IMG/VR virus record: IMGVR_UViG_3300042900_000713 | Span: 39,886-103,885 of that record | DNA length: 64,000 bases | Direction: 5' to 3' (one strand) | From: a virus | Taxonomy: Duplodnaviria > Heunggongvirae > Uroviricota > Caudoviricetes | In this document: positions 1 through 55,169 of the stretch, piece after piece | Layout: every line of letters starts with the position of its first letter | Position numbering within the stretch: the first letter of the stretch is position 1 | Position numbers and translations under genes: made by a program | Notes under the pieces: generated by a model | Database searches by the model: none | The model's input: the letters and a program-made list of their open reading frames with translations, nothing else | Told to the model about the DNA's origin: nothing

Positions 1-34
1 TCGGAATTGTCCTGAATAGTAATTGCCATGATGA

Positions 35-166
35 TCAGATAAGGTGAGCAGGGGAACCGCAGGAACGATAGAAGTCTACCATGCGCAGAGCATCATCTAG
101 AGTGGAGAATGTTTGTGTTCTCCACTCGCAAGCATTGTACGGAGTTTGGTAACGGATTGAAAACAT
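35..166 (-). CDS. hypothetical small protein (43 aa)
   Basis: ATG at 164-166, TGA at 35-37, ATGA-overlap with next minus gene; no recognizable promoter. Confidence 0.25.
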   Translation of the reverse strand: MFSIRYQTPYNACEWRTQTFSTLDDALRMVDFYRSCGSPAHLI

Positions 167-189
167 GATCGTTTTAGAGAGTGTAAAGA

Positions 190-237
190 ATGGGGGAGGG
201 ATTCTCCCCCTTGTGCCAGTTGCTAGATTGTCACCCG
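190..237 (-). promoter_or_regulatory. cassette E1 (box + GGGGGAG hairpin; no clear -10)
   Basis: gggggagggattctccccc + ttgtgccagttgctagattgtcac. Confidence 0.5.
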
Positions 238-488
238 ATCAGGGCAGCGGCGAGACGATCGCGCTTGCGGATGTTAACAATTGACCACTGATTGCGCTTG
301 CCATTACTAGAACGGGTCGCGGTGAGAATACCATCATCTTCCATGTCTACCATTACGGCATGGATTGTACCTTTGTGACGCTTCGGATCCATACCCATAA
401 TGCGCACGAGATCGCTACATGTTTGCGGTCCCTGTTGAATGAGAACGCTGCGGACTGCGATGCGGGTCAGAGCGGAGAAGTTGAGCAT
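231..488 (-). CDS. hypothetical protein, 85 aa (possible winged-helix-like)
   Basis: Internal ATG (486-488) lies immediately after cassette E2; the 166-aa track ORF 231..731 reads through the cassette and is probably artefactual. Confidence 0.5.
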   Translation of the reverse strand: MLNFSALTRIAVRSVLIQQGPQTCSDLVRIMGMDPKRHKGTIHAVMVDMEDDGILTATRSSNGKRNQWSIVNIRKRDRLAAALIG

Positions 489-572
489 CGGTCGGTGTCG
501 GTGTTGACTCTTTAATCCTAGTCGGTCAGGAGGGGGACCCGTGAGTCCCCCGAACCAGTTGTCAGACTGTCC
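489..572 (-). promoter_or_regulatory. PeSL-like cassette E2 (subfamily A)
   Basis: ttgactctttaatcctagtcggtcagg + GGGGGA…TCCCCC hairpin + box ccagttgtcagactgtcc. Confidence 0.6.
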
Positions 573-750
573 CGGCAGCGGGGATCCGTTTCTCAACTTC
601 TCGAGAATTGCGACCGGCGCCAGTGGCAGCATAAAATCGGGTTTTTGCGCCACCGACGCGGGAGCATACGAGTTCGCTACGCTTTGGTTTCGCAGTGGGC
701 AGGATGGTGACGGTGAAAGTCTGACCGTCAATGATCTCGATGGTGTTCAT
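562..750 (-). CDS. hypothetical protein 62 aa; C-terminal ~15 aa encoded by cassette E2
   Basis: ATG after E3 leader; stop inside E2 box (…GTV*). Confidence 0.3.
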   Translation of the reverse strand: MNTIEIIDGQTFTVTILPTAKPKRSELVCSRVGGAKTRFYAATGAGRNSREVEKRIPAAGTV

Positions 751-837
751 TGGTCTCGTGTGCGGTGTTGACTCTTTAATCCTAGTCGGTCAGGAGGGGG
801 GAACCGTGTCCCCCTTGTGCCGGTTGCTAGATTGTCA
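751..837 (-). promoter_or_regulatory. PeSL-like cassette E3 (subfamily A)
   Basis: Near-identical to E4 over ~85 bp including the first codon of the downstream gene. Confidence 0.65.
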
Positions 838-1089
838 CAGCATCTCGATCAGATGCATCATCGTGGTGATCTGAACCGGGGTCTGCCAGATGATGACATC
901 TTCCAACATATTGCCATTCGGGCGCATTACACCAACCTCGAAAGTGTCGTGCTGAATGTCACCTTTGAGTCCAGAATCCTTCGGACCCGCAACTACACTA
1001 ATGGTCCAATAGTTCCGGAAAGTGTACTCTGCGCGAGTGCCACCTTTGACTACACTGTGATCGAAGAAGTTCAGATCGGAGAAGTTCAT
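835..1089 (-). CDS. hypothetical protein 84 aa
   Basis: ATG follows E4 leader; stop in E3 box. Confidence 0.5.
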   Translation of the reverse strand: MNFSDLNFFDHSVVKGGTRAEYTFRNYWTISVVAGPKDSGLKGDIQHDTFEVGVMRPNGNMLEDVIIWQTPVQITTMMHLIEML

Positions 1090-1175
1090 TGGTCTCGTGT
1101 GCGGTGTTGACTCTTTAATCCTAGTCGGTCAGGAGGGGGAACCGTGTCCCCCTTGTGCCGGTTCTTCAAGTGTCT
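1090..1175 (-). promoter_or_regulatory. PeSL-like cassette E4 (subfamily A)
   Basis: ggtctcgtgtgcggtgttgactctttaatcctagtcggtcaggagggggaaccgtgtcccccttgtgccggttcttcaagtgtc. Confidence 0.65.
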
Positions 1176-1366
1176 TGGAGTTTTATTTGGGCATTATTCC
1201 AACGGCATACCGCACGATGTTTTGTGCCACAATCTTTGGTTGATGTGTGGTTATTATCACAAATCACCTTCCACATATCACGAAAATCCCAATCTTCAAT
1301 ACATTTTGCTTTTGCACCACATCTTGCACAAGGGGTAATGGGTGGAGTTTTAATTTTCTGTGCCAT
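1166..1366 (-). CDS. Cys-rich small protein 66 aa
   Basis: ATG follows E5 TATAAT promoter; stop TGA in E4 box. Confidence 0.5.
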   Translation of the reverse strand: MAQKIKTPPITPCARCGAKAKCIEDWDFRDMWKVICDNNHTSTKDCGTKHRAVCRWNNAQIKLQDT

Positions 1367-1446
1367 CAGTTCTCTGTGTGTATGAAACTATTATAAGGCA
1401 TCCAGAGGCATCCAGAGCACCCCTTGTGCCACTGATCAGACTGTCA
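1367..1446 (-). promoter_or_regulatory. cassette E5 (box + TATAAT -10)
   Basis: Minus: CTGATCAGTGGCACAAGG…GCCTTATAATAGTTTCATACACACAGAG…ATG. Confidence 0.6.
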
Positions 1447-1762
1447 CAAGGTATTGCCAGTTCTGATAGGTTTGCTTTACATCATCAGAGAATCTTACCA
1501 GTTCAGGATAACCTTCGCAGCGAATCCAAAGATAACAAATGATGCATAAGTCTTTAACTTGTGCATATGTTTTTTGAATAAGATCTTTACCACCATTCTT
1601 ATACCATTGTGCAATCTTTGTGCAAATGAAGGAAACAACAGCAACAGAAACAGCAACAAAAACAATACAAACATTGATCAGATTGTAAAAGTGTTTTTTG
1701 TACTCGATCTTTGAAAGTACACTGATCAGATCGTCAACGGGAGGAAAAGATGCGGTAAACAT
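1436..1762 (-). CDS. small membrane protein (~108 aa, one TM)
   Basis: Internal ATG at 1760-1762 preceded by E6 and GGGAtgtgtcTCCCC hairpin; hydrophobic stretch VCIVFVAVSVAVVSFI. Confidence 0.5.
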   Translation of the reverse strand: MFTASFPPVDDLISVLSKIEYKKHFYNLINVCIVFVAVSVAVVSFICTKIAQWYKNGGKDLIQKTYAQVKDLCIICYLWIRCEGYPELVRFSDDVKQTYQNWQYLVTV

Positions 1763-1860
1763 TGTTTTCTGATGAGGGGGGAGACACATCCCTCACAAGA
1801 TTTAAGATAACAGAAAATCAGGGGTCGTGGCGATCTTATGTGCCAGTTGTCAGACTGTCC
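1763..1860 (-). promoter_or_regulatory. cassette E6 (box + leader hairpin)
   Basis: atgtgccagttgtcagactgtcc box; GAGGGATGTGTCTCCCCCCTC hairpin before ATG. Confidence 0.5.
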
Positions 1861-1985
1861 ACCTTGGTGACCTTATGGGTCTGATGATGCTGTAGGATAA
1901 GGGGACAATCAGCAAAGACAGCAGAGGGGTATCTGCTTGATCAATCCATCGCCACTGAAGCACCTCTCAAATAGTAAGATAAAAA

Positions 1986-2014
1986 GTATAAAAAAAGGAG
2001 GCATGATTGCCTCC
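1986..2014 (-). terminator. rho-independent terminator (minus strand)
   Basis: Minus: GGAGGCAATCATGCCTCC + TTTTTTTATAC, downstream of 2031..2225. Confidence 0.7.
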
Positions 2015-2030
2015 AAGTTGATGTAATGAA

Positions 2031-2225
2031 TTAGTTGCCTCCTTCGAATAGAATTGCATCAGATTCTTTCAGATCTTCGAGGGTCATTGTACCTGCAGAA
2101 TCACCCTCAAAATCTGAAGTCTGGCACTCAACAACTTCTAAACCAGCGTCTTCGATTTGATCAATCGATGAACCTCGTATCCAGCAATAGCGACCGGCAG
2201 CATCAGCGCAGAGGAAAACTTCCAT
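2031..2225 (-). CDS. hypothetical protein 64 aa
   Basis: ATG (MEVFLC) directly after E7 leader CAAAGACACACCC; intrinsic terminator downstream. Confidence 0.5.
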   Translation of the reverse strand: MEVFLCADAAGRYCWIRGSSIDQIEDAGLEVVECQTSDFEGDSAGTMTLEDLKESDAILFEGGN

Positions 2226-2316
2226 GGTGGTTGGGTGTGTCTTTGGTTGACTCTTTAATCCTAGTCGGTCCAAAGGGGGAACCGAGTCCCCCTTGTGCCA
2301 GTTGTCAGAGTGTCAC
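2226..2316 (-). promoter_or_regulatory. PeSL-like cassette E7 (subfamily A)
   Basis: ttgactctttaatcctagtcggtccaaagggggaaccgagtcccccttgtgccagttgtcagagtgtcac. Confidence 0.65.
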
Positions 2317-2622
2317 AGCAGAATCAAACTCTTCAATCTTACCATCATAAGCAATAAACCAAGTGTGATTTTTCTGATAGACAGATTCATCACCCTTACC
2401 ATTCTCCCGAAGGAGAGCATTAAGGCGAGACTTAGTTGTTTTAGTCTTCCAACCGCAATGATGAATAGTAATGAAACCTTCACCAATCTCGGCAATCTTA
2501 TGACCGTGAAGGTAAACTCGGGAAACTTCGTTACCCTCTTCATACTCAACACGAGTATTATCAAGGGACCAATCCTTACGGTTAAGGATTGCTGCGTTCA
2601 TCAGGGTTTCGATCTTACGCAT
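2305..2622 (-). CDS. hypothetical protein 105 aa
   Basis: ATG after E8 leader; stop in E7 box. Confidence 0.55.
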   Translation of the reverse strand: MRKIETLMNAAILNRKDWSLDNTRVEYEEGNEVSRVYLHGHKIAEIGEGFITIHHCGWKTKTTKSRLNALLRENGKGDESVYQKNHTWFIAYDGKIEEFDSAVTL

Positions 2623-2708
2623 GGTTTGAAGTGGTTTGGTTGACTCTGTAATCTTAAGGGGTCCGAAGGGGGAACCGTGTCCCCCTTGTGCCAGTTGTCA
2701 GAGTGTCA
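2623..2708 (-). promoter_or_regulatory. PeSL-like cassette E8 (A variant, -10 TAAGAT)
   Basis: ttgactctgtaatcttaagg + gggggaaccgtgtccccc + box. Confidence 0.6.
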
Positions 2709-2942
2709 CGCTGCCACTAGTTCAGTCGTGGGGATGAGCATACGCTCAGCAACCCAACGGCGGTAGGTTTGACCAATCGAACCGGTAGGACTTTCAAGGT
2801 AGTTAACAATCACGTCCTCACTTTCAGTGACGAAAGTGTAAACATTATTCAGATTGCCCTGAAAAGTGATGCTAACTTCTTGACCTTCGACATCAACAGA
2901 AGCGATGCAGGAAGATTGTTGCTCAGTAAAAGTGAAGTTCAT
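2706..2942 (-). CDS. hypothetical protein 78 aa
   Basis: ORF ends in E8 box. Confidence 0.5.
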   Translation of the reverse strand: MNFTFTEQQSSCIASVDVEGQEVSITFQGNLNNVYTFVTESEDVIVNYLESPTGSIGQTYRRWVAERMLIPTTELVAA

Positions 2943-3007
2943 GATAATAATAAAAAAAAGGGTTTGTTTGAGGCAGTTTTACATCTTACCTCAGGATGCT
3001 TATAAGG

Positions 3008-3160
3008 TTAGTCTTTATACAGATTATGAATCTTAGAGCGAATGGTGAACACTTGCTCTGGATCATAATCCTCATTATCCAAAGCATGACCAATGAAGTT
3101 GTAAATCATATCCCACTCATCTTCAGTAAAGAACTCTTTAATGGTGTCAGTGGTAGTCAT
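3008..3160 (-). CDS. hypothetical protein 50 aa (MTTTDT… N-terminus duplicated in 3275..3427)
   Basis: ATG after E9 leader CAAAGGCAAACCA; not in ORF track (<60 aa). Confidence 0.4.
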   Translation of the reverse strand: MTTTDTIKEFFTEDEWDMIYNFIGHALDNEDYDPEQVFTIRSKIHNLYKD

Positions 3161-3243
3161 TGGTTTGCCTTTGGTTGACTTACTTAAGATAACAGATCTT
3201 CAGGGTCTTGTGTGAGATCTCGTGCCACTTTGGAAACTGGCAC
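3161..3243 (-). promoter_or_regulatory. PeSL-like cassette E9 (subfamily B; palindromic box GTGCCA-N10-TGGCAC)
   Basis: ggttgacttacttaagata…cgtgccactttggaaactggcac; duplicate of E10. Confidence 0.6.
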
Positions 3244-3274
3244 ATCTCGACGAGATTGTAGTCTCGACTAGATT

Positions 3275-3427
3275 TTACATGCCCAGTAGTTTGTAATTAA
3301 GTTCGGATACTTCACCAACATCTAAACCAGTAATTTCCTGAACCTCATAAGAACTAAGTTGATTAAAGATCATGAGAAGTGCCGCAATCTCGCGGGCAGT
3401 GAATTGATTGGTGTCAGTGGTAGTCAT
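3275..3427 (-). CDS. hypothetical protein 50 aa (MTTTDT…)
   Basis: ATG after E10 leader; E10 is a duplicate of E9 including the first six codons. Confidence 0.4.
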   Translation of the reverse strand: MTTTDTNQFTAREIAALLMIFNQLSSYEVQEITGLDVGEVSELNYKLLGM

Positions 3428-3504
3428 TGGTTTGCCTTTGGTTGACTTACTTAAGATACAGGATTTTCAGGGTCCTGTGTGAGATCGTGTGCCACTTTGG
3501 AAAC
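3428..3504 (-). promoter_or_regulatory. PeSL-like cassette E10 (subfamily B)
   Basis: ~80-bp duplicate of E9 including MTTTDT codons. Confidence 0.6.
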
Positions 3505-3636
3505 TGGCACACGTAGGTTCATTGGTGAGTTAAAAAATCTACGGAATGCAGTAACAATAATGATACCCGTAGAAACTACACCAATCAAACCCAAAAAAGT
3601 AACCGTATCACCAGTGAAGTTGTAAGTTTCAATCAT
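3451..3636 (-). CDS. small membrane protein; C-terminal part read from cassette E10
   Basis: Hydrophobic N-terminal 40 aa; ORF continues through E10. Confidence 0.35.
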   Translation of the reverse strand: MIETYNFTGDTVTFLGLIGVVSTGIIIVTAFRRFFNSPMNLRVPVSKVAHDLTQDPENPVS

Positions 3637-3791
3637 CAGAAATCATGCCCAGAGTTAAGTGATTCGTTGAATGAAGCATCATCGTATCCATCTTCATCAT
3701 CATCACGAAGATAAGGATCATTCTCAAGTTGCTCCACAAGATCAAAACGAGATAGTTCCTCGATTTGATACCTTTGAGTGTAAGGATCCAT
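3636..3791 (-). CDS. acidic small protein ~51 aa
   Basis: ATG (MDPYTQ) after E11 TATGAT promoter/leader. Confidence 0.45.
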   Translation of the reverse strand: MDPYTQRYQIEELSRFDLVEQLENDPYLRDDDEDGYDDASFNESLNSGHDF

Positions 3792-3876
3792 TTGTTGTCT
3801 TTGGTGTGACTTGTTTATCATAGCAGCAGTTTAGAGACTTGCCTAGGTCTGTTGTGCCAGTTCTTATTCTGTCACA
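3792..3876 (-). promoter_or_regulatory. cassette E11 (subfamily D, -10 TATGAT)
   Basis: ttatcatagcagcagtttagagacttgcctaggtctgttgtgccagttcttattctgtcac; ~60 bp near-identical to E20. Confidence 0.6.
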
Positions 3877-4103
3877 ACCTCATAATCATAATCACTTACA
3901 CACCACCCAGAATCATCAGATAGTTTATCTGTCAATGCTTCAACAATGAAGTCAACAAAGTATTCTGGGTCTTCATCAATCTCAACCGTGAAGATCTTAT
4001 TCTCATAAGATTCTTCAACATCAATCATGTAGTTTTCATCTACATCATTGTCACCAGAAAAATCAAACTGAACATTGTTAACTTTAACCTGAACTTCAAT
4101 CAT
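3864..4103 (-). CDS. hypothetical acidic protein 79 aa
   Basis: ATG after E12 leader; stop in E11 box (…VVTE*). Confidence 0.55.
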   Translation of the reverse strand: MIEVQVKVNNVQFDFSGDNDVDENYMIDVEESYENKIFTVEIDEDPEYFVDFIVEALTDKLSDDSGWCVSDYDYEVVTE

Positions 4104-4186
4104 GATGTTTGAGGTGGTTGACTTGTTAATCTTAAGGGATCAGAGGGGGATCTCATGTCCCCCTTGTGCCAGTTGTCAGACCGTCA
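4104..4186 (-). promoter_or_regulatory. PeSL-like cassette E12 (hairpin GGGGGAtctcatgTCCCCC)
   Basis: Compensatory loop change relative to E3/E4 hairpin; -10 TAAGAT; box at fixed 31 bp. Confidence 0.6.
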
Positions 4187-4354
4187 CATCATACTTCATA
4201 AAACTTATAGTGGCGAATCTCTGACTGATAGAATGCTTCATCTTCAGAATCATTACAGAACCCGAGAAGATAGTTGCAAAGTTCGACCCGATGATTGCAA
4301 ACATCTTGCAGAATCTCAGGATTGCGTTGAAAGCAGTTGTTGAAATCGCGAATC
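4187..4354 (-). CDS. Cys-rich small protein 55 aa
   Basis: ATG after E13 leader CAAAGACACCCAAC; stop next to E12 box. Confidence 0.4.
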
Positions 4355-4440
4355 ATGTTGGGTGTCTTTGGTTGACTTGTTTAGTATAAGGCACCCAGAG
4401 CGGATCTTGGGTGCCTGTCTGTGCCAGTTGTCAGACCGTC
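4355..4440 (-). promoter_or_regulatory. PeSL-like cassette E13 (subfamily C, -10 TATACT)
   Basis: Hairpin ggcacccagagcggatcttgggtgcc + box gtgccagttgtcagaccgtcac. Confidence 0.6.
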
Positions 4441-4642
4441 ACATCAGGTCTTCATACTCACCAGAATCCATCGCATCTTCCAGTGCAGTCACCAGACCGT
4501 CGAAGTCTTCAGATGAAGGTAGGATACCAGTGAGAATGTTGACCAGATCACCATACTCTTCGCGGAGTTCGTCCAGATACTCTTTGCGATCAGCGTAACC
4601 GTTATCAGTGTAGACGGACATGAGTGGTTCGGTGTTGAACAA
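4439..4642 (-). CDS. acidic small protein 67 aa (alternative start MSVYT at ~4619)
   Basis: Degenerate cassette upstream; stop in E13 box. Confidence 0.45.
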   Translation of the reverse strand: MFNTEPLMSVYTDNGYADRKEYLDELREEYGDLVNILTGILPSSEDFDGLVTALEDAMDSGEYEDLM

Positions 4643-4712
4643 ATGTAATGTAGCAGCAATTCTCCACCAACACCAGAGTCCTGTGCCACTTCAGGAACCG
4701 TCTGAGAGGTGC
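4643..4712 (-). promoter_or_regulatory. degenerate cassette (box variant gtgccacttcaggaaccgtctga)
   Basis: Box-like sequence upstream of 4439..4642. Confidence 0.35.
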
Positions 4713-4896
4713 CCACAAGGACCTACAGCACCCTTGTAATAGTATTGTATACTCAAAGTACACAAACAAAAAAATAGATCAGGAACCACCCTGATCTACA
4801 TTATACTCAAACACCTACAAATACTTTAATTATAATTTACTCTACTCATTGGGTAACTTTTCTTATAGTGAGGCAAACCCATTCCTCATATTTAAT

Positions 4897-5064
4897 TTAA
4901 GCAGAAACCTCCATCCATTCAATATCATTACGGTAGACAATCATTGGTGATCCGTAATCATCAACCTCATCAACGGCAAAATTAACTGCATGATGTTCTG
5001 ATGTAAAGAACTCCAGATCATCAGGATTAGATTTAGGAGCAACTGACCAGGAAACGAATGCCAT
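4897..5064 (-). CDS. hypothetical protein 55 aa
   Basis: Internal ATG (MAFVSW) after E14 leader CAAACAAACGTC. Confidence 0.4.
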   Translation of the reverse strand: MAFVSWSVAPKSNPDDLEFFTSEHHAVNFAVDEVDDYGSPMIVYRNDIEWMEVSA

Positions 5065-5144
5065 GACGTTTGTTTGGTTGACTTGTTTAGTATAAGGCAC
5101 CCAGAGCGGATCTTAGGTGCCTCGTGTGCCAGTTCTCAAACTGG
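5065..5144 (-). promoter_or_regulatory. PeSL-like cassette E14 (subfamily C)
   Basis: ggttgacttgtttagtataaggcacccagagcggatcttaggtgcc + box. Confidence 0.6.
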
Positions 5145-5315
5145 TCTGCTGTTCTTTGCTGCATGAATCAATTCTTCTTCTGACAGAATGTCAATGTAAC
5201 CATTCGGATAAACACTGCAGAAGTGATCCAGTGCATCATCTGCTTCATCATAAGAAGCATAAACCGCCAGAGTCTCATATGCATCTGGAGTGATCTCAAC
5301 GATGTAGTGTTCCAT
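5136..5315 (-). CDS. acidic small protein 59 aa
   Basis: ATG after E15 leader CAAAGGACACCTCTC; stop in E14 box. Confidence 0.45.
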   Translation of the reverse strand: MEHYIVEITPDAYETLAVYASYDEADDALDHFCSVYPNGYIDILSEEELIHAAKNSRPV

Positions 5316-5400
5316 GAGAGGTGTCCTTTGGTTGACTCTGTAATCATAAGGTACCTACAGGGTCTTCTAGGTGCCTCTTGTGCCAGTTCTTAAAGTGTCC
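5316..5400 (-). promoter_or_regulatory. PeSL-like cassette E15 (hairpin ggtacctacagggtcttctaggtgcc, -10 TATGAT)
   Basis: Different hairpin sequence, same architecture and spacing. Confidence 0.6.
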
Positions 5401-5735
5401 AATTCTTATTTCCAAACACCAAAATATGACTCCTATGTGATAAGATTAAAATACAAAATCTTATCAGGAATCGTCCTGTTATTTTTTATTTCTTACACTT
5501 CTCATCCTAACCGATCTGTTAGAGACTTATAATATGATGTTTCACTGTTTGATTTATTATGTCCTGTTTTATTACGCCGGAGACAGGATATTATGACCAA
5601 CTCCCTCTTTTTATAATGATCAATAACACATAATGTATCATAAGATCATTTGGTTCTTTTAAGATTGTTACCTCTTAGTGCCGTAGCAAGAGTTCAATTG
5701 CTTATCAGAATTAATGTTCTTATGTATCTATTTAG

Positions 5736-5879
5736 TCACATAAACTCTTCAATGAAGTAATCAACTGTAATATCATGAATCTTACAGAATTCTTCTACAT
5801 CATCAGGTAGTTTCTCTAAGATCTCTGATGCTGTAAACTTAACATAGAGATCATAGAATTGGGTTTCATCAAACGCCAT
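5736..5879 (-). CDS. acidic small protein 47 aa
   Basis: ATG preceded by TTGACA-18-TAGACT sigma70-like promoter. Confidence 0.35.
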   Translation of the reverse strand: MAFDETQFYDLYVKFTASEILEKLPDDVEEFCKIHDITVDYFIEEFM

Positions 5880-5980
5880 AAGTGTTTCTGAAGGGGTTTA
5901 GAGGAACTTAAAGATCTTATAGAATACAATTATTCTCAACCGGGACAAACCTAGTCTAGCAGTAACCTGATGGTCTTGTC

Positions 5981-6013
5981 AAGCCTTATGTTAATATTAC
6001 GTAACATAAGGCT
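5981..6013. other. perfect 12-bp-stem hairpin AGCCTTATGTTA-N8-TAACATAAGGCT
   Basis: Lies between genes 6027..6305 and 5736..5879, overlapping the TTGACA -35. Confidence 0.6.
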
Positions 6014-6026
6014 CTTATGCTATCTC

Positions 6027-6305
6027 TTACCCCATCACCAACTCAGGAGACTTAGTAATCCTATGACTAAACATAGCAGTGCATTCAATACTGTAAGGAT
6101 AAGACTGAGAGTTAAACTCTTGAATCACCTCCCAAGTCTCATGTACACACTTAATGATCACTGCACCATCCATTTCAGGATCTTGAAGGTGTGCATTATA
6201 AAAATTACAAGCATATCCAATGGAAGAAGAACAAGAATGTTGATTGAAGAAACCATGCTCGTTGTTCCCAAAACCAATCACCTTATAAAGCGTTTGAGTA
6301 GTCAT
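6027..6305 (-). CDS. hypothetical protein 92 aa
   Basis: ATG after E16 leader CCAAGGACACCCG; the opposite-strand ORF 5970..6347 is a shadow. Confidence 0.5.
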   Translation of the reverse strand: MTTQTLYKVIGFGNNEHGFFNQHSCSSSIGYACNFYNAHLQDPEMDGAVIIKCVHETWEVIQEFNSQSYPYSIECTAMFSHRITKSPELVMG

Positions 6306-6377
6306 CGGGTGTCCTTGGGTTACCTGAGTATCTTACACGCCTTCTAGGGTCTTACAGGCATCTCTCAGACGGTTCTT
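6306..6377 (-). promoter_or_regulatory. cassette E16 (box variant, -10 TAAGAT)
   Basis: cagacggttcttaaagtggcac. Confidence 0.45.
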
Positions 6378-6511
6378 AAAGTGGCACAGCAACTCACCAT
6401 AAGGACTGTCTTATGTCTTATGATGTATTCACAACCAAACGAGGTCTGATGTAGGACCAGATGTAAATGATCGTCACTGAACCTACCAAAAAATAATAAG
6501 AATTAAAACAT

Positions 6512-6538
6512 AAAAAAAGGGTTCCTTATAAGGAACCC
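6512..6538 (-). terminator. rho-independent terminator (minus strand)
   Basis: GGGTTCCttataaGGAACCC + TTTTTTT, downstream of 6546..7058. Confidence 0.7.
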
Positions 6539-6545
6539 TGATGTA

Positions 6546-7610: not shown

Positions 7611-7631
7611 AAGAACTCCGTGTGGTTGATC

Positions 7632-8098: not shown

Positions 8099-8162
8099 TA
8101 CAGATTGTCTCCATTTACTACCCTACTTTCACCTATATACAAAAAAGTATGAGAAAATCAAT

Positions 8163-8714
8163 ATGTTTCAGAAGGTCACAAAGAAGATCTCTGATATTGA
8201 AGGTATGGAAAACTATAAGTTCTATTATGTTACCACCGATGGAGAGATCTATTCAACCAAATATAAGAAACCAAGAAGATTAAAGGAACAATGGTCTAAT
8301 GGTAATCAATCTTATAGAGTAGTTCAACTCTCTAATGGCAAGGGTAATCACAGATCCTTTTATATTCATCGTATTGTTGTAGAAGCATGGTTACCAAATC
8401 CAACAGACTCATGGGGTATTCAACATATTGACGGAAATGTTGAAAATAATGCTCTATCCAACCTAAGATGGATTGGTAGAAAAAAGGAAAGAGATGGTCT
8501 AATAGGTTTAGATACTGATCAATTAGAATTAAGTAAAGATCTAAGTGATTATATTCGTTTAGTACACGATGCTGCAATTAGAAAAAACATTCCTGTTCCT
8601 GATACATATGAGTTCTTTCATAAAATCTTAAATGAATCATTGAATGAGTACATCAATCGTTATGGTCTCAAGAAGACAATGTACTTGTTAGAGAATTCAA
8701 AAGAAACAATCTAA
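8163..8714 (+). CDS. HNH homing endonuclease (NUMOD4 + HNH_3 family)
   Basis: YKFYYVTTDGEIYS (NUMOD4-like) and IHRIVVEAWL…HIDGN…NLRW motifs; only convincing plus-strand gene. Confidence 0.8.
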   Translation: MFQKVTKKISDIEGMENYKFYYVTTDGEIYSTKYKKPRRLKEQWSNGNQSYRVVQLSNGKGNHRSFYIHRIVVEAWLPNPTDSWGIQHIDGNVENNALSNLRWIGRKKERDGLIGLDTDQLELSKDLSDYIRLVHDAAIRKNIPVPDTYEFFHKILNESLNEYINRYGLKKTMYLLENSKETI

Positions 8715-16969: not shown

Positions 16970-17151
16970 TCTTCCTCCATCTCAAAACTCATATCATAAT
17001 ATGGCCCTAGTACTTCTGCTTTACTATAACACCAATTACAAAACTCCATACTTTCTATCATATCAACATCCCAACCACAACATTCCACGGCAGTATGAAG
17101 TGTAGAAAGAAACTCTGGAGTAAGAAGTTCTTTTAGTTCTTGTTTCGCCAT
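16966..17151 (-). CDS. hypothetical protein 61 aa
   Basis: Coupled minus ORF. Confidence 0.45.
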   Translation of the reverse strand: MAKQELKELLTPEFLSTLHTAVECCGWDVDMIESMEFCNWCYSKAEVLGPYYDMSFEMEEE

Positions 17152-17378
17152 AATAGTTCAAGTTCATCACAAATAGCATCAATTTCGTGAATAGCATCAT
17201 CCCAACCATTCACATAACTTACGTGACAATCATCCCTCCAATTTACATTCTCATTAGTTCCCGAAATAAGTTCTCGTAGTTTCTCAAGAGTTTCTTTGAG
17301 TGCCCAGGCAGTATTATGATGTTTGCTATTGGAGATTACCCGTAGGAGTTCTTCTGCGATTTGTTGATTTGTAGTCAT
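17133..17378 (-). CDS. hypothetical protein 81 aa (MTTNQQIAEELL…)
   Basis: Coupled minus ORF; its 5' end is duplicated at 17950-17985. Confidence 0.5.
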   Translation of the reverse strand: MTTNQQIAEELLRVISNSKHHNTAWALKETLEKLRELISGTNENVNWRDDCHVSYVNGWDDAIHEIDAICDELELLWRNKN

Positions 17379-17542
17379 TTTAGTGCATCAATAAATGTGT
17401 TATACATCCAAGAGATTACGAGTGCTTGTGCCCAAGTGAGAGGAAAGAAAGACACAAGTGCCCAACCAACTAATCCTATAACAACATAAAATCCAATTGT
17501 TTCACCAATCTTTTCGGCAGACTTTTCAGTCATTTTAGTCAT
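17375..17542 (-). CDS. small membrane protein 55 aa
   Basis: ATGA-coupled at both ends; FYVVIGLVGWALVSFFPLTW hydrophobic. Confidence 0.4.
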   Translation of the reverse strand: MTKMTEKSAEKIGETIGFYVVIGLVGWALVSFFPLTWAQALVISWMYNTFIDALK

Positions 17543-17883
17543 TCCACACCCTCACTCATAAGAACTTTAAGAGCATCCCATTCATCCGTAGTCAGCATAT
17601 CTTTCACTTTCTCTATAACTTCTTTACTTGATTCTCGTTTCTGAATTTCTTCTGTGGTATAATACTGAGCGGGTTTTCCATCTGCATCACCATAAGGAAT
17701 TGCATCATACCAACCTTGGTTTGGGAATAGTTTACATAATGCGCCTATATTTACATACCTTGGTCTCTCATTTTCTACAATATCTTGAATATGAGACCAC
17801 GCAACATCTTCTGCGGTCTCACTGTCATCAGCAACTACCATTACATCGTAAATAACAGAGATGGGATAAAGTTTTTTCGTCAT
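17539..17883 (-). CDS. hypothetical protein 114 aa
   Basis: Coupled minus ORF. Confidence 0.55.
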   Translation of the reverse strand: MTKKLYPISVIYDVMVVADDSETAEDVAWSHIQDIVENERPRYVNIGALCKLFPNQGWYDAIPYGDADGKPAQYYTTEEIQKRESSKEVIEKVKDMLTTDEWDALKVLMSEGVE

Positions 17884-17949
17884 TTGGAGTTCCTCTTGTG
17901 TGTATGGGAAATAGAATTGGGAGTAGATGGATTTGCACCATCATTGCTA

Positions 17950-17985
17950 AGTAGGAGTTCTTCTGCGATTTGTTGATTAGTCATT
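17950..17985 (-). repeat. duplicated gene 5' end (copy of 17340-17378)
   Basis: gtaggagttcttctgcgatttgttgatt(t)agtcat; encodes MTNQQIAEELL then diverges into a 34-aa ORF. Confidence 0.7.
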
Positions 17986-22691: not shown

Positions 22692-22970
22692 TCAAACCTC
22701 CAAAATCACAACTTCTTTTCTTTCCATAGCAATTTCACCATCTACCAACTTACCATCAATCTCGTCTCTATACTCACAAGTATTTTCAGTAAATGAGTAG
22801 TATTCAATATTACTCTGCCACTTGGTAGTATAAACACAATGATGTATGCGGGATTGACGAATTACAAACTCATCCTCAATGTGCTCTCTATAGTTGTCCT
22901 TATAAACAATCAGGACTTCCATATCATCTGGGTAGTTCTCCAAAAGTGCTTTTAGATGTATAAGTTTCAT
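22692..22970 (-). CDS. member of MKxKxLKxLLExxPDDMEV small-protein family (92 aa)
   Basis: N-terminus MKLIHLKALLENYPDDMEV shared with 22974, 23500 and 23909 genes. Confidence 0.5.
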   Translation of the reverse strand: MKLIHLKALLENYPDDMEVLIVYKDNYREHIEDEFVIRQSRIHHCVYTTKWQSNIEYYSFTENTCEYRDEIDGKLVDGEIAMERKEVVILEV

Positions 22971-23499: not shown

Positions 23500-23733
23500 T
23501 CAATAAAGCAAAAGAACATCTTTTTTAACTCTTCTCCAACTTAAATCATCATCAAGGTCTTTTTTATAATACATCAACATTAGAGGGTCATTTAAATCTT
23601 CAGGATATACTGTTGCAGTTATAACTTCTGAATCTATTTCAGTATCATAGAACATATGGGAAGAAATATCTTTAACCACTTCCATATCATCTGGGTAGTT
23701 CTCCAGAAGTGCTTTTAGATGTTTGATTTTCAT
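23500..23733 (-). CDS. member of MKxKxLKxLLExxPDDMEV family (77 aa)
   Basis: MKIKHLKALLENYPDDMEV…DVLLLY; closest to 22974..23207. Confidence 0.5.
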   Translation of the reverse strand: MKIKHLKALLENYPDDMEVVKDISSHMFYDTEIDSEVITATVYPEDLNDPLMLMYYKKDLDDDLSWRRVKKDVLLLY

Positions 23734-45637: not shown

Positions 45638-46093
45638 TTATCCTCTAATAATAGTATCAAAACCCTCCTCGTTTGTTGGAAGTTCATATTCTTTTATCAT
45701 TCTCTCAAGGACTTCTGGTGGAATGACTTTACCTGGTCTTTGGGTATTTCTTTTGAGTGCTGTTTCTAATGATACCACAAAGTACACTGCTGTTTTTTTA
45801 TAAGTATCTGGAATATGCTTAAGTTTCTCACGTCTTTGCTTCTTGGTCAAATTTGTTTGATCCCAAATTATACTCTTACCATCTTCTATTGCTTGCCTAA
45901 GAACCTTCATCATAGCAATCTGTGCGAACCTTATGTTTCCTTTAAAAACAGTATTATAAGATTGCTGGCGTTCTTTTGCGACCTCTTGAAGAATGTCATC
46001 AGAAGAAACGCGAACATATTTTTTGTATTTTGGATCATTGGAGAAGGTTGATTTTCCTGCAGTAGGAATGCCAACAAGCATTATCAGTTCCAT
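45638..46093 (-). CDS. polynucleotide 5'-kinase (T4 PseT kinase-domain-like, P-loop)
   Basis: Walker A GIPTAGKST near the N-terminus; 151 aa; overlaps the RNA ligase gene by 10 nt. Confidence 0.7.
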   Translation of the reverse strand: MELIMLVGIPTAGKSTFSNDPKYKKYVRVSSDDILQEVAKERQQSYNTVFKGNIRFAQIAMMKVLRQAIEDGKSIIWDQTNLTKKQRREKLKHIPDTYKKTAVYFVVSLETALKRNTQRPGKVIPPEVLERMIKEYELPTNEEGFDTIIRG

Positions 46094-47244
46094 TTCAAGT
46101 TACCCCACATCCAACGAGCACTTTCAATTTTCGTTTGGGAACTCAAAGATTTTCCAATCATTTTTATCAATACCTCTTGAGAACCTTTACCCGCTTTCAT
46201 TTCATACATTATAGGAACATATTTAGTCAGCAAGATTTTCTGGACGAACTCAACAGCGAAGTCTTTCTTATCAGGATACTTTGTATTTCCAGTCACAAAG
46301 AGTTCCGCCAAATCACAGGCAACGTCTTCCAGACCCACCCAGAATGCCCTCTCAAAAGAGCGTAGGCGTTGAGCGTCCTCTGGTGTCAGCAGCGGCACCA
46401 AATCGTCTACAGAGTCGTCTAGGATGGTCTGAAGGACATTCTTCTCCTGACTGATGCTGTCTTTGGAGCGGTGGCGAAGCACATAATCATCTGCCTTGAT
46501 CTTAATCATATGACCAGAATCAAAACGAATTACCACACCCTCCAAGTCTTCCCATTTACGGATGTGTTCTACAATCTTGGTGATGTCTTTGTCATCACCA
46601 GCAATTGCTTTGACTATAGGAATATTCCATGATTCGGTATATCGCTTCATAATATCATAGGGAACATATTCACCAGTATTTAAATAACGAATGCCAGTCA
46701 GAATCAGTTGATCTTCAGGATAATCAATGACAATACGATTCTTACGAGAGCACCATTCAAAAATAGGAGTGGTTCCCTTTTGGATACATTTATTAATAAA
46801 GGTGGAATAGTGTGATTTATCAGAAATGAACGCTTCTGCTTGTTCAGAAATATCAGTAACACCTGCCTTGGTTGCGAGGAGGAAACCCTCTTTGGTGGAA
46901 ATATGACGAATCATGGATCCATCAAGTTTCTCTAGAACAACGTGAGGTTCATACAGATTGATTCTATTCAGTTGAGTTTCTTCCTTCTCACCAGCATTAA
47001 AGAATTTATTGTATGGTCTTGAAATAAGAACTCCATTATCATCAAAAATCAAACCACGACATTCCCGACGAACAGAAGAACCTACAGGGTCATTAGAGTC
47101 CCACTTAAAGGTTTCCTCAAGTGCGACCATATACTGAATTACGGTGTAACCTTCTTTCTCCATTACCCGGAACTCATCTCTACCTTCAATATGAGGAAGA
47201 ACGTCATGAATGGTTTTAATTTCTGGGAAGTCGTAATTCATCAT
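46084..47244 (-). CDS. rnlA: RNA ligase 1 (T4 RnlA-like)
   Basis: ECRGLIFD…, motif I EKLDGSM (KxDG), IFEWC; length 386 aa like T4 Rnl1 (374 aa); TATAAT after terminator hairpin upstream. Confidence 0.8.
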   Translation of the reverse strand: MMNYDFPEIKTIHDVLPHIEGRDEFRVMEKEGYTVIQYMVALEETFKWDSNDPVGSSVRRECRGLIFDDNGVLISRPYNKFFNAGEKEETQLNRINLYEPHVVLEKLDGSMIRHISTKEGFLLATKAGVTDISEQAEAFISDKSHYSTFINKCIQKGTTPIFEWCSRKNRIVIDYPEDQLILTGIRYLNTGEYVPYDIMKRYTESWNIPIVKAIAGDDKDITKIVEHIRKWEDLEGVVIRFDSGHMIKIKADDYVLRHRSKDSISQEKNVLQTILDDSVDDLVPLLTPEDAQRLRSFERAFWVGLEDVACDLAELFVTGNTKYPDKKDFAVEFVQKILLTKYVPIMYEMKAGKGSQEVLIKMIGKSLSSQTKIESARWMWGNLKWN

Positions 47245-48512: not shown

Positions 48513-48590
48513 AATTTGATTTTGTTTACAAGGTTATTATAGAGTGTTTGAGTGAGAAGTGAGAGCATCCTTGTGCCAGTTTAGCAATCG
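48513..48590 (-). promoter_or_regulatory. cassette E38 (box + TATAAT)
   Basis: ccttgtgccagtttagcaatcgccac; 31-bp spacing. Confidence 0.55.
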
Positions 48591-48717
48591 CCACTCTCCA
48601 GGCAGGCACTGACATCCTGAATTTCCTTTGCCTTGCGCGTGAGTTCCTTAAGATGCAGTGAGAGGATGTTGAGATCGTCTTCTGTGCGTCCCATAAGAGC
48701 ATCATAGACTCTCTCAA
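48526..48717 (-). CDS. hypothetical protein; C-terminus read through cassette E38
   Basis: ORF continues through box and -10 until TAA in TATAATAA. Confidence 0.35.
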   Translation of the reverse strand: MRESMMLLWDAQKTISTSSHCILRNSRARQRKFRMSVPAWRVAIAKLAQGCSHFSLKHSIITL

Positions 48718-48789
48718 AGGCCGCTGCGGTTTGTAATGTGAGTTGTCTTTCCATTATTTGATATTATGTTAATGAAGGAATAAATTTTT

Positions 48790-53810: not shown

Positions 53811-55169
53811 TTACTTTTTGATTACGTCAGCAACGAAGTTACCCTTTACAAATACCTCGTCAACCACATTCTGCACACGGCGAGCAGTTGCAATGCCAAC
53901 TTTGTTATTGTACACGGGAATGACCACTTTGCCAAATGGTTTGATGTAGTTAGAGAAATCACCTGGTTCCAGTTCACCAGACTTCATACGGGCAGTATCA
54001 TCAGGATTCACCCGAATGCAACGACCAATGCTCTGAACAGTAGAGATAAAGTTTTGTTGACGAAGAAAGATACAAGACTGAATACCAGGAACACTGATAC
54101 CCTCGGTGAGAATACCAATATGTAGAACAACAAACTTACGATTGGAGTCAGCACCATACTCACTCAACGTATCCAGAAACTCAGTACGTGAAACCTTACG
54201 CTTACCCACATATGCTCCCAACTTGGAGGTAATATGCAGAACTTCATAACCATTGTCGTGCATTTCCTCCATAAAGGAAGTTTCAGAGAGCATCTTTATC
54301 ATTACTTTGGTGTTCGGTGCCACCACCAGAACCTTGTTCATATCATCATCATTAAAAATAGTATCACATAGAGTGTAGAAGTCACGTTCGTGTGCAGTTT
54401 CTTTGTCACGGAATGAACCAACTTCCGTCACCGCAACCACAGGAGGAAGAATACTACCATTGAGAAGCAGTTCAGGTGCCTTGACATTATGAATCTTGGA
54501 ACCAAATACCTCAGCATTATTGTTACCGGGTTTTGATGCAACTTGACTGAACTTAGGAGTTGCAGTGAGAGAATAGAAGTTCTTTGCAGTCTTACTGATT
54601 GCCTCTACAGCATCAAAGAACTTACCATTTACGGCATTATGACATTCATCCAAGTAAACAACATCAATGTCCAGTTCTGCTTTTACAATTTTATCCAGAG
54701 AATGATAAGTGGTAAAGATGAGTTTGTGACCTTCTGTCTTCTCATGCCAGTAAGCAAGTTCTAGAAAGTCAGTGATACGAGTGTGCTTGGTTTCACCACT
54801 ATGAATGTGGGCGATAGAAGCATTATCAATAAACTTCTCAAACTCTTCGCTGAGTTGCTGGCAAAGAACTAGTTTCGGAGCAACCACTAGAATGGTCTGG
54901 TTACTTTCACCTTCGGTGAAACGATGCTTCGCATCGGCAATAATCATAATAGTTTTACCCGCACTAGTAGGAGCGACTGTAAGCATCCTAGAGTGCTGTC
55001 GCATCAGTCCAAAGACTTCTTGCTGGTGAGGACGCAAATCAAACATGGGTAGTTTCCTTGTGTACGAGATCATTATAGCAGTAAAAAAGTCCACTAGGAG
55101 GTTCCCAGTGGACGGTTTCTTAAGTGGTTCAGAGGCTTTAGAGATACAATTGTTTCTCAAAAGGAACAA
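53811..55169 (-). CDS. superfamily 2 DEAD/DEAH-box helicase (ResIII-like)
   Basis: Motif I APTSAGKT, motif II LDECH, motif III-like SLTATP; ATG after E40 terminator/TATAAT. Confidence 0.75.
   Translation of the reverse strand: MFLLRNNCISKASEPLKKPSTGNLLVDFFTAIMISYTRKLPMFDLRPHQQEVFGLMRQHSRMLTVAPTSAGKTIMIIADAKHRFTEGESNQTILVVAPKLVLCQQLSEEFEKFIDNASIAHIHSGETKHTRITDFLELAYWHEKTEGHKLIFTTYHSLDKIVKAELDIDVVYLDECHNAVNGKFFDAVEAISKTAKNFYSLTATPKFSQVASKPGNNNAEVFGSKIHNVKAPELLLNGSILPPVVAVTEVGSFRDKETAHERDFYTLCDTIFNDDDMNKVLVVAPNTKVMIKMLSETSFMEEMHDNGYEVLHITSKLGAYVGKRKVSRTEFLDTLSEYGADSNRKFVVLHIGILTEGISVPGIQSCIFLRQQNFISTVQSIGRCIRVNPDDTARMKSGELEPGDFSNYIKPFGKVVIPVYNNKVGIATARRVQNVVDEVFVKGNFVADVIKK
55050..55120 (-). 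terminator. E40: box variant + terminator hairpin + T6 + TATAAT
   Basis: Minus: GTCCACTgggaacctcctAGTGGACTTTTTTACTGCTATAATG. Confidence 0.6.

What the first reader, a model, noticed from the sequence alone, without database searches (positions are those of the whole stretch)
3141..3455. Cassette duplications extend into coding sequence, creating genes with identical N-termini and unrelated bodies
E9 and E10 share ~80 bp including the first six codons, so MTTTDT begins both 3008..3160 and 3275..3427. E3 and E4 share the start codon context (cattggtctcgtgtgcggtgttgactc). 17340-17378 is copied at 17950-17985, giving the pseudo-start MTNQQIAEELL. Several ORFs (562..750, 3451..3636, 48526..48717, and the 231..731 read-through) acquire C-terminal tails from cassette sequence. 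This is direct evidence that the cassettes mediate illegitimate or homologous recombination that fuses and swaps gene ends.
Basis: seen in the sequence. Interest (0 to 1): 0.6.

Follow-up and report, generated by a model that had tools for sequence, protein, structure and literature searches.

The report
Promoter cassettes recombining into phage genes
Two neighbouring small genes of a freshwater T4-like cyanophage begin with the same six codons because the repeated promoter cassette in front of each is copied between the two sites by recombination, and one copying event ran about 16 bases into the gene; this is a cyanophage version of the known "PeSL" gene-shuffling cassettes of T4-type phages.

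Summary
The core observation is real. Window 3141-3244 and 3408-3511 (- strand) are a 104-nt direct repeat, with the last 52 nt identical. It covers a whole intergenic cassette plus ATG and 16 more bases, so ORF 3008..3160 (A) and ORF 3275..3427 (B) both start MTTTDT and are otherwise unrelated. Among 703 pairs of cassette-led gene starts the next longest shared run is 6 nt.

The cassettes are about 35 copies of an early-promoter/hairpin module: a TGTGaCA-N10-TGGCACA box, a 28-31-nt spacer that often forms a hairpin, TAnnnT, an A/C-rich leader, then ATG. The phage is a T4-like cyanomyovirus.

Metagenomic sister strains and relatives show:
- Cassette alleles move between the two slots.
- Whole cassettes are swapped between identical flanking genes.
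- Chimeric cassettes occur.
- B is absent, cassette-less, or has other neighbours in relatives.
- The membrane-protein gene 3451..3636 lost its native stop and carries a 21-aa cassette-encoded tail.

MTTTDT is native to the A family. B's own start is MTDT(DT), so only one or two residues changed.

Two sub-claims (231..731 and 48526..48717) are ORF-calling artefacts. The 17.3/17.9-kb repeat is real but does not lie in a cassette.

Verdict: a PeSL-like system in a cyanophage, a new variant of a known kind, of moderate interest.

The parts
3408..3511 (-). Repeat copy E10. It holds the 24-nt palindromic box TGTGCCAGTTTCCAAAGTGGCACA (3488-3511), a 29-nt spacer, the -10-like TATCTT (3453-3458), the leader AAGTAAGTCAACCAAAGGCAAACCA, the ATG (3425-3427) and 16 more bases of ORF B.
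   Evidence: (D19).
3141..3244 (-). Repeat copy E9. Same architecture as E10 (box 3221-3244 with a final G, -10 3186-3191, ATG 3158-3160) plus 16 more bases of ORF A. It differs from E10 at 8 positions, all between -33 and -62.
3275..3427 (-). ORF B, 50 aa, MTTTDTNQFTAREI... One source names it a helix-turn-helix protein. Relatives start MTDTNQF (no cassette upstream), MTDTDTNQF or MDTTNTNQF (cassette upstream).
3008..3160 (-). ORF A, 50 aa, MTTTDTIKEFFTEDEWDMIYNF... MTTTDT or a near variant of it is conserved in most of 25 homologues, down to 73% identity, so this family owns the shared hexapeptide.
3451..3636 (-). Small membrane-protein gene (TM). Residues 1-40 match a 43-position phage family. 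The last 21 residues (NLRVPVSKVAHDLTQDPENPVS) are mostly read from cassette E10, and the stop is the TAA overlapping the -10 element.
   Evidence: The 244-aa gene of L020 carries a near-identical tail (A-Q for A-H).
3245..3274 (-). The 30-nt 3' trailer of ORF B (aatctagtcgagactacaatctcgtcgaga). It travels with B in every context seen.
4357..4446 (-). Cassette in front of gene 4189..4356. In sister strain L019 its core is replaced by a different cassette subtype, while both flanks are identical. In L018 its 5' 67 nt (100% identical) are fused to an E10-type 3' end in front of B.
751..838 (-). Cassette E3, in front of gene 562..750.
   Evidence: (D1).
1090..1176 (-). Cassette E4, in front of gene 835..1089. 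It shares a 50-nt exact run with E3 upstream of ATG but only one codon inside the gene.
489..573 (-). Cassette in front of the real gene 231..488. The listed 231..731 ORF is a read-through artefact of ORF listing.
   Evidence: D1.
17950..17984 (-). Copy of the first 11 codons of gene 17133..17378. It opens a 34-aa relic ORF (17880..17984) that ends at the ATGA start overlap of gene 17539..17883, just after a half cassette (CCATACACACAAGAGGAACTCCAA).
17343..17378 (-). Start of gene 17133..17378, the second copy of that repeat. The two copies flank two genes.

Best explanation
What the region is. The window is the early, hyperplastic region of a freshwater T4-like cyanomyovirus. Most of its small genes are separated by copies of one regulatory cassette. 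Read on the - strand, a cassette has these parts:
- A box, TGTG(A/C)CA-N10-TGGCACA. Its left half usually supplies the TGA stop of the upstream gene.
- A spacer of fixed length (28-31 nt) that is often a G+C-rich hairpin of variable sequence.
- A -10-like TAnnnT.
- An A/C-rich leader without a Shine-Dalgarno sequence.
- The ATG of the next gene.

Inferred function: an early promoter, with a terminator or stabilising hairpin in many copies.

How the shared start arose. Because the copies are alike, they recombine. ORF B is flanked by two nearly identical copies, E10 and E9. Non-reciprocal homologous recombination (gene conversion) between these two slots has moved cassette alleles back and forth among strains. 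In the window's lineage, one tract ran past the ATG and ended in the 10-nt stretch ACTGACACCA that A and B already shared. This gave B the exact first 19 nt of A, so both begin MTTTDT.

How the tail arose. Earlier, a cassette copy was placed into the ATGA stop/start overlap that couples TM to B in relatives. This uncoupled B, removed TM's stop codon and left TM with a cassette-encoded tail.

Shown: the repeat, the allele exchange between slots, the cassette swaps and chimeras, the alternative gene neighbours, the native ends of A, B and TM.

Inferred: promoter and terminator activity, the enzymology of the exchange, and the order and direction of individual events.
For: Anatomy:
- 35 cassettes were found. 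The box-to--10 spacer is 28-31 nt in 34 of 35, the -10 element is TAnnnT, and the hairpin z-score is below -1.5 in 20 of 35.
- The strict pattern occurs 31 times on the - strand and 4 times on the + strand.
- The same family occurs in S-SRM01 (about 16 convincing copies among 24 loose-pattern hits), in DSL-LC02 and in marine Syn9 (2 full copies).

Phage type:
- An RnlA-like protein is 59% identical to that of Synechococcus phages B3/B23. A helicase is 48% identical to that of S-SRM01.

Recombination:
- Window E10 and L019 E9 are identical over all 103 cassette and start positions; they differ only at the first gene-body base. The orthologous E9 copies differ by 7.
- Window and L019 differ at 136 of 2361 positions. 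47 of these lie in three cassettes, and none lies in the B body or in TM. B nevertheless differs by a contiguous 3-nt patch at codons 2-3.
- The cassette at 4357-4446 is replaced by another subtype between identical flanks.
- L018 carries a chimeric cassette, with the crossover in GTCAACCAAAG.
- Gene contexts of B and A seen in relatives:
  - TM-B coupled by ATGA with no cassette (L012-L017)
  - A-TM-B (L013-L015)
  - TM-cassette-A without B (L154/L155)
  - a 244-aa gene-cassette-B (L020)
  - other neighbours (L018, L141)
- In L152 the A and B starts differ by 1 nt but carry a different sequence from the window's (ACCAAC/ACCGAC), as expected for concerted evolution.

Ownership of the shared start:
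- MTTTDT or a near variant occurs in most of 25 A homologues. B homologues start MTDT, MTDTDT or MDTTNT.

Not an assembly error:
- The sequence was checked in three of nine collinear contigs from other samples (L001, L003, L008) and is identical there.
Against: - The direction of the 3-nt patch is not settled. Three close strains and L152 carry ACCGAC. The more distant L141 carries GACACC, which is nearer the A type.
- At least two transfers between the slots are needed to explain the data. Their order is inferred, not observed.
- How cassette E10 first arrived between TM and B is unknown. Its left junction shows no homology.
- There are no transcript data for this phage, so promoter and terminator roles rest on sequence architecture alone. 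No conserved -35 element exists.
- A third of the cassettes have no convincing hairpin.
- A nuclease-driven process is not excluded. An HNH gene or a GIY-YIG-like gene sits next to the cassette in L141 and L020.
Confidence: 0.75

Rival explanations
1. The exchanges are started by a site-specific enzyme rather than by general homologous recombination. A homing endonuclease or recombinase would recognise the palindromic box or a nearby site, and the shared codons would be a co-conversion tract from repair of the break.
For: - The box is a 24-nt perfect or near-perfect palindrome at E9, E10, L013 and L141.
- In L020 a 244-aa gene lies directly against cassette E10. It has a GIY...YIG-like N-terminal motif (my reading) and a sub-threshold NUMOD3 match.
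- In L141 an HNH gene lies directly upstream of the cassette-B module.
- The window carries an HNH gene on the opposite strand at 8163..8714.
- Arbiol et al. left both homologous and site-specific recombination open (PMC4122927).
Against: - Crossover points are spread over the cassette: the box edge, the hairpin region, the GTCAACCAAAG leader and inside the gene. This fits homology-guided exchange better than one cut site.
- Most cassettes have no endonuclease gene nearby.
- The L020 gene has no family assignment above threshold.
Confidence: 0.12
2. The identical start results from selection, not copying. An A/C-rich, unstructured ATG-ACT-ACC-ACT-GAC-ACC start would be favoured for translation from a leader without a Shine-Dalgarno sequence, so the first codons would be a functional part of the cassette.
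For: - Many cassette-led genes start ATGAC(T/C). Thr/Asp-rich starts recur in the window, S-SRM01 and DSL-LC02 (MT.., MTDT, MVTDT, MTTTFA).
- The A and B families both have MT(D/T)T-type starts in distant relatives.
Against: - Selection on peptide or composition does not predict identity at every synonymous site over 19 nt.
- It does not predict a contiguous 3-nt polymorphic patch between strains whose B bodies are identical.
- It does not predict the 103-nt identity of window E10 with L019 E9.
- No other pair among 703 + 1577 exceeds 9 nt.
Confidence: 0.04
3. Ordinary tandem duplication of a gene together with its cassette, followed by divergence of the two gene bodies.
For: Both ORFs are exactly 50 aa long and lie 267 nt apart.
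Against: - Identity drops from 100% to random within a few bases at +20.
- BLASTP aligns only the hexapeptide.
- A and B have separate homologue families with different contexts.
- In relatives they are not adjacent, or B is missing.
Confidence: 0.02
4. Assembly artefact: a repeat collapsed or chimerically joined during metagenome assembly.
For: Contigs of this population often break inside cassettes, at window positions 5106, 2287 and 2700.
Against: - Nine contigs from JGI, ENA and NCBI assemblies of other samples are collinear with this region at 99.5-100% identity. The three checked directly (L001, L003, L008) give the identical E10-B-E9-A sequence.
- The perfectly identical tract is only 52 nt, shorter than a sequencing read.
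Confidence: 0.02

Closest known systems
PeSL (promoter-early stem-loop) cassettes of T4-type phages RB49/phi1, T4/PST and KVP40/nt-1 (Arbiol et al. 2010, PMC2839356; Comeau et al. 2014, PMC4122927)
   Same: - Short conserved composite regulatory modules lie in the intergenic spaces of hyperplastic early regions.
- They end at the ATG of the next gene.
- They sit at insertions, deletions and replacements of small ORFan genes between close relatives.
- Crossovers map inside the cassette, including between -10 and ATG.
- Chimeric cassettes result.
   Different: - There is no conserved -35 hexamer and no Shine-Dalgarno sequence.
- A conserved, partly palindromic box lies about 30 nt upstream of -10.
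- The hairpin lies between the box and -10, where -35 would be, instead of upstream of the promoter.
- The box supplies the upstream gene's stop codon.
- The host is a cyanobacterium.
- Here one exchange tract is seen to extend into the coding sequence, and cassette sequence is translated as protein tails.
- Mini-circles were not tested.
PmSL (promoter-middle stem-loop) variant in Vibrio phage nt-1 (PMC4122927)
   Same: A cassette in which the -35 element is replaced by another upstream recognition element, together with a -10.
   Different: In nt-1 the element is a Mot box (TGCTT) at about -30. Here the box ends about 30 nt upstream of -10, and no MotA-like system is known in cyanophages (own knowledge).
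Early promoter motif of T4-like cyanophages, mapped in Syn9 by Doron et al. 2016 (ISME J, PMC5029184; not held, so recalled only)
   Same: The same box-N30-TATTCT-AGAGTCAAAG architecture occurs at least twice in the small-gene region of Syn9. The cassette promoter is therefore probably the general early promoter of this phage family.
   Different: I could not read the paper, so identity with the published motif is unverified. Dense arrays of recombining copies have not been reported for cyanophages in the papers I could search. S-PM2 was said to lack them (PMC4503421).
Co-conversion of flanking markers by free-standing homing endonucleases of T-even phages (seg and mob genes; own knowledge)
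   Same: Short patches of sequence are copied between co-infecting or repeated sequences next to intergenic endonuclease genes.
   Different: No endonuclease gene lies next to E9 or E10 in the window, and the exchange points are scattered.

Membership tests
PeSL cassettes (Arbiol 2010; Comeau 2014) | Repeated conserved motif in intergenic spaces of hyperplastic, small-gene early regions of a T4-like phage | tested here: met
   About 35 copies on the coding strand. T4-like cyanophage markers are present.
PeSL cassettes (Arbiol 2010; Comeau 2014) | Sigma-70-like promoter with -35, N17 and -10 | tested here: not met
   A -10 element (TAnnnT) is present in all copies. The -35 position is not conserved: 11 of 34 cassettes have at least 4 of 6 matches, against 14% at random positions. 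The consensus scan picks up only 3 cassettes.
PeSL cassettes (Arbiol 2010; Comeau 2014) | Stem-loop just upstream of the promoter | tested here: inconclusive
   A hairpin is present in 20 of 35 cassettes (z < -1.5). It lies between the upstream box and -10, not upstream of the whole promoter. A T-run follows in only 4.
PeSL cassettes (Arbiol 2010; Comeau 2014) | Shine-Dalgarno sequence and start codon at the 3' end | tested here: not met
   The ATG is always present. The leader is A/C-rich (GTCAACCAAAG or CATACACACAAAG) with no GGAG-like element.
PeSL cassettes (Arbiol 2010; Comeau 2014) | Located at insertions, deletions or replacements of genes between close relatives, with crossovers inside the cassette | tested here: met
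   L019 cassette swap; L018 chimeric cassette; L020 replacement ending at the box edge; L154 lacks B plus one cassette.
PeSL cassettes (Arbiol 2010; Comeau 2014) | Formation of mini-circles by recombination between flanking cassettes | not testable with these tools
   This needs inverse PCR or long reads from infected cells or lysates.
T4-like cyanophage early promoter (Syn9) | Same motif upstream of experimentally mapped early transcription starts | tested here: inconclusive
   The architecture is found twice in Syn9 at about 48.57 and 51.01 kb. The published start sites could not be consulted.

The most novel reading that the evidence does not exclude
The 24-bp box (TGTGCCA-N10-TGGCACA) is held at a fixed distance from -10 in freshwater and marine T4-like cyanophages. 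In this reading it is the binding site of a dimeric phage or host protein that replaces -35 recognition at early promoters. The same protein-DNA complex, or an endonuclease that targets it, would actively start the exchanges. The cassettes would then be true mobile elements that carry stop, terminator, promoter, leader and start as one unit, and would not be merely passive patches of homology.
Probability: 0.12. Interest if true: 0.7.

Novelty: new variant of a known kind. Interest (0 to 1): 0.42.

Why it matters
- It extends the PeSL model of modular gene shuffling from enterobacterial, Yersinia and Vibrio T4-type phages to T4-like cyanophages. There, dense arrays had been reported as absent in the only paper I could find that addresses the point (PMC4503421).
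- It supports the model with population-level evidence: allele hopping between slots, cassette swaps and chimeras.
- It shows two side effects on proteins: homogenised first codons, and cassette-encoded C-terminal tails when the box loses its built-in TGA.
- For annotation and assembly of cyanophage metagenomes, the cassettes explain three things: contig breaks, spurious read-through ORFs, and the rapid turnover of ORFan genes.
- The effect on proteins in this particular case is small, one or two residues.

Tried and rejected
- Megablast of window 1-12000 against the phage collection found nothing.
- Rfam (gathering thresholds) and tRNA scans of the whole window found nothing.
- tblastn of ORF B against isolated phages found nothing.
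- Nine contigs carrying the exact A and B proteins proved to be the same population, so they gave no alternative junctions.
- The contexts of the 81-aa gene 17133..17378 are identical in all 7 contigs shown, so the ancestral state of the 17.3/17.9-kb repeat could not be recovered.
- A blastn search with one cassette found only S-SRM01 among isolates, because the cassettes are too short and variable for BLAST.
Single matches there may be chance matches; I relied only on loci with several cassettes.
- I looked for a -35 element and for a reading in which hairpin extrusion brings TTGAAG or CTGACA to 17 nt from -10. The spacing does not fit (by reading).
- Sigma-54 (TGGCAC-N5-TTGC), NtcA (GTA-N8-TAC), CRP (TGTGA-N6-TCACA) and RpaB HLR1 readings of the box were rejected by inspection of spacing and sequence.
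- The Doron et al. 2016 paper could not be retrieved. Literature searches for a described cyanophage cassette found none.
- Pfam and PHROGs gave no function for A, B or the L020 244-aa gene.

Full report
**1. Where we are**

Almost all genes of the window lie on the - strand. Marker proteins place it in a T4-like cyanomyovirus:
- An RnlA-type RNA ligase (46084..47244) is 59% identical to that of Synechococcus phages B3/B23.
- A helicase (53811..55169) is 48% identical to that of the freshwater phage S-SRM01, and more than 400 cyanophage records match it.

No isolate is close at the DNA level. Nine contigs from metagenome or environmental assemblies (JGI, ENA and NCBI records; at least the named relatives come from lakes and reservoirs) are 99.5-100% identical and collinear with window 1-7675. 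The phage is therefore a natural population sampled many times.

**2. The cassette**

On the - strand the small genes are separated by a repeated module. I catalogued 35 copies. Each copy contains, in order:
- A box whose consensus is G.CA.T....AACtGGCACA. In the first 5 kb it reads TGTGACA-N10-TGGCACA, an imperfect palindrome.
- A spacer of 28-31 nt in 34 of 35 copies.
- A TAnnnT hexamer (consensus TATAAT).
- 19-36 nt of A/C-rich leader, of either the GTCAACCAAAG type or the CATACACACAAAG type.
- The ATG.

Further properties:
- The spacer folds into a hairpin more stable than shuffled sequence (z < -1.5) in 20 of 35 copies. Stem sequences are quite different between copies, and a T-run follows in four.
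- No -35 element is conserved.
- The strict pattern occurs 31 times on the - strand and 4 times on the + strand.
- The left half of the box usually holds the TGA or TAA that ends the upstream gene. A stop closes two or more reading frames within the last 30 nt of the box in 19 of 34 copies.
- The constant distance between box and -10, despite variable hairpins, argues that the box works on DNA as part of the promoter. This is an inference.

The same architecture is found elsewhere:
- In S-SRM01, about 16 convincing copies in its small-gene region.
- In DSL-LC02.
- Twice in marine Syn9.
- In many IMG/VR contigs with several copies each.

It is therefore probably the general early promoter of T4-like cyanophages. 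I could not check this against the published Syn9 start sites.

**3. The observation**

I aligned the two units on their ATGs.
- E9 (3141-3244) and E10 (3408-3511) match from -84 to +20.
- The last 52 nt are identical.
- Eight differences lie between -33 and -62.
- Identity is random outside the repeat.
- The 19-mer ATGACTACCACTGACACCA occurs twice, against 0.02 expected.
- Over 703 pairs of cassette-led starts in the window, the exact run after ATG is 16 nt for this pair and 6 or less for all others.
- In 1577 within-locus pairs from related contigs the maximum is 9.

The event is therefore real and exceptional. E3/E4 share 50 nt upstream but only one codon in the gene. The proteins A and B share nothing beyond MTTTDT.

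**4. Who owns the hexapeptide**

A homologues:
- 29 clusters were found, down to 73% identity. Of the 25 read, most begin MTTTDT or a near variant (MTNTDT, MTTTET, MTTTDA).
- A few have MNQAIGNHAV or another start.
- S-SRM01 has MKTTTHPIKDFF.

B homologues:
- They begin MTDTNQF where B is coupled to the preceding gene without a cassette.
- They begin MTDTDTNQF or MDTTNTNQF where a cassette precedes B.

The exact MTTTDT of the window's B is thus the A version. It differs from B's usual cassette-linked form by one amino acid (D3T) and three adjacent bases.

**5. Evidence that recombination did it**

(a) L019 is a sister strain, 94.7% identical over 2.36 kb.
- It differs from the window at 136 positions. 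47 of these lie in three cassettes, and none lies in the B body or in TM.
- B nevertheless differs by the contiguous patch ACTACC/ACCGAC at codons 2-3.

(b) L019's E9 copy is identical to the window's E10 copy at all 103 cassette and start positions. The orthologous E9 copies differ by 7, and the two copies within one genome differ by 6-9. An allele has therefore moved between the two slots.

(c) The cassette at 4357-4446 is replaced in L019 by another subtype, between identical flanks.

(d) In L018 the cassette before B is a chimera. Its first 67 nt are 100% identical to window 4363-4429, and its last bases are of E10 type. The switch lies in GTCAACCAAAG, which is the -10-to-ATG zone where Arbiol et al. 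mapped mini-circle crossovers.

(e) In L152 the A and B starts are again nearly the same (ACCAAC/ACCGAC) but differ from the window's, as expected if the first codons evolve in concert with the cassette.

(f) Gene order varies, with cassettes at the joints:

| Locus | Arrangement |
|---|---|
| L013-L015 | A-TM-B, coupled by ATGA overlaps |
| S-SRM01 | A-TM |
| L154/L155 | TM-cassette-A, without B |
| Window, L019, L152 | TM-E10-B-E9-A |
| L020 | 244-aa gene-E10-B-E9-A |
| L018, L141 | other neighbours |

B with its 30-nt trailer is 92-94% identical between L012-L015 and the window, while the neighbouring TM is 77% identical. The homology starts at ACTGACACCA. This 10-mer is shared by the native starts of A and B, and it is where the converted tract ends.

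**6. Protein tails**

- In five relatives TM ends ...SP(L/Y)RK* at 42 aa. In L012-L017 its TGA overlaps B's ATG.
- In the window, L019, L152 and L154 the cassette sits in that overlap. The stop is gone, and TM runs to the TAA inside TATCTTAA, which adds 21 residues.
- TM matches a 43-position PHROG only over residues 2-40.
- The unrelated 244-aa gene of L020 ends with a near-identical tail, RVPVSKVAQDLTQDPENPVS (Q where the window has H).
- Several A homologues carry 14-18-aa tails that are translations of a downstream box. Examples are WHFKNWHTGSC..., from TGGCACTTTAAGAACTGGCAC, and CDTLRTGT... (the back-translation is my reading).
- The E9/E10 subtype has a perfect palindrome (TGTGCCA instead of TGTGACA). 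It therefore lacks the built-in TGA, which explains why tails arise at this subtype.

**7. Sub-claims that fail**

- 231..731 is only the longest ORF across a cassette. The gene starts at ATG 488.
- 48526..48717 is an out-of-frame ORF over the real gene 48581..48754.
- The repeat at 17343-17378 and 17950-17984 is real. It leaves a 34-aa relic ORF next to a half cassette, and the two copies flank two genes. The repeat itself is gene sequence and not cassette. All 7 contigs shown have the same arrangement.

**8. Comparison with the known**

The system works like the PeSLs of T4-type phages (PMC2839356, PMC4122927). It meets two of their criteria, namely location and association with indels. It fails two others: it has no -35 element and no Shine-Dalgarno sequence. 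The hairpin is placed differently, and mini-circles are untestable here.

The only paper I found that discusses PeSLs in a cyanophage states that S-PM2 lacks a dense array. The S-SRM01 genome paper does not mention promoters or motifs.

I therefore class it as a new variant of a known kind.

**9. Limits**

- The direction and order of individual transfers are not resolved.
- The first arrival of E10 between TM and B has no visible homology at its left end.
- Function as promoter and terminator is inferred from architecture only.
- A nuclease-initiated process is not excluded.

Noticed in passing
window 22692-24202 (- strand): Four tandem paralogous small genes (92, 77, 77 and 97 aa) start MK..L..LLE.(F/Y)P(D/E)DME(V/I). 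The first 61 nt of 22692..22970 (92-aa subtype) and of 23500..23733 (77-aa subtype) are 90% identical, although the bodies belong to different subtypes. This is a second N-terminal patch exchange, here between true paralogues and without a cassette (D11).
   Followed up: partly
window 7874-8044: A tandem array of about nine 19-nt units (CATAAGAACCATAAGAYTA) lies in a gene-poor stretch, next to an HNH endonuclease gene on the opposite strand (8163..8714) (D3).
   Followed up: no
L020 516-1250; L141 126-740: Endonuclease-type genes sit directly against the cassette-B module in two relatives. L020 has a 244-aa gene with a GIY...YIG-like motif and a weak NUMOD3 match, whose ORF ends inside the cassette. 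L141 has an HNH gene on the opposite strand.
   Followed up: partly
window cassettes generally, e.g. 2297-2316, 2690-2709, 4168-4187: The left half-site of the box (TGTGACA, followed by TCTGAC) doubles as the stop codon of the upstream gene in two reading frames. Where the box is a perfect palindrome (TGTGCCA) the stop is lost and proteins gain cassette-encoded tails, as also seen in A homologues P0013, P0022, P0023 and P0026.
   Followed up: partly
L150 about 48572; L151 about 1014 (Syn9 48.57 and 51.01 kb): The marine phage Syn9 carries the same box-N30-TATTCT-AGAGTCAAAG architecture, so the cassette promoter is conserved across freshwater and marine T4-like cyanophages.
   Followed up: partly
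window 60700-63232: Three tandem paralogous genes (266, 246 and 230 aa) share 74-83% identical segments. The first one, the only one scanned, matches virion-structural PHROGs (D4 and D16).
   Followed up: no
window 21460-22139 and 42283-43088: Dispersed paralogues about 72-73% identical, 20.8 kb apart. The second carries internal tandem repeats with 78- and 90-nt spacing at 42420-42794 (D2, D6, D20).
   Followed up: no
L012 8148-8215: After B's stop and 20 nt of trailer lies a 3' fragment of a second TM-like gene (…IVTAFRRYYSSPLRK*). It is joined by ATGA to a DUF7326 gene and is another recombination scar.
   Followed up: no
window 5106, 2287, 2700: Several independent metagenome contigs of this population end inside cassettes, so the repeats break short-read assemblies.
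   Followed up: no
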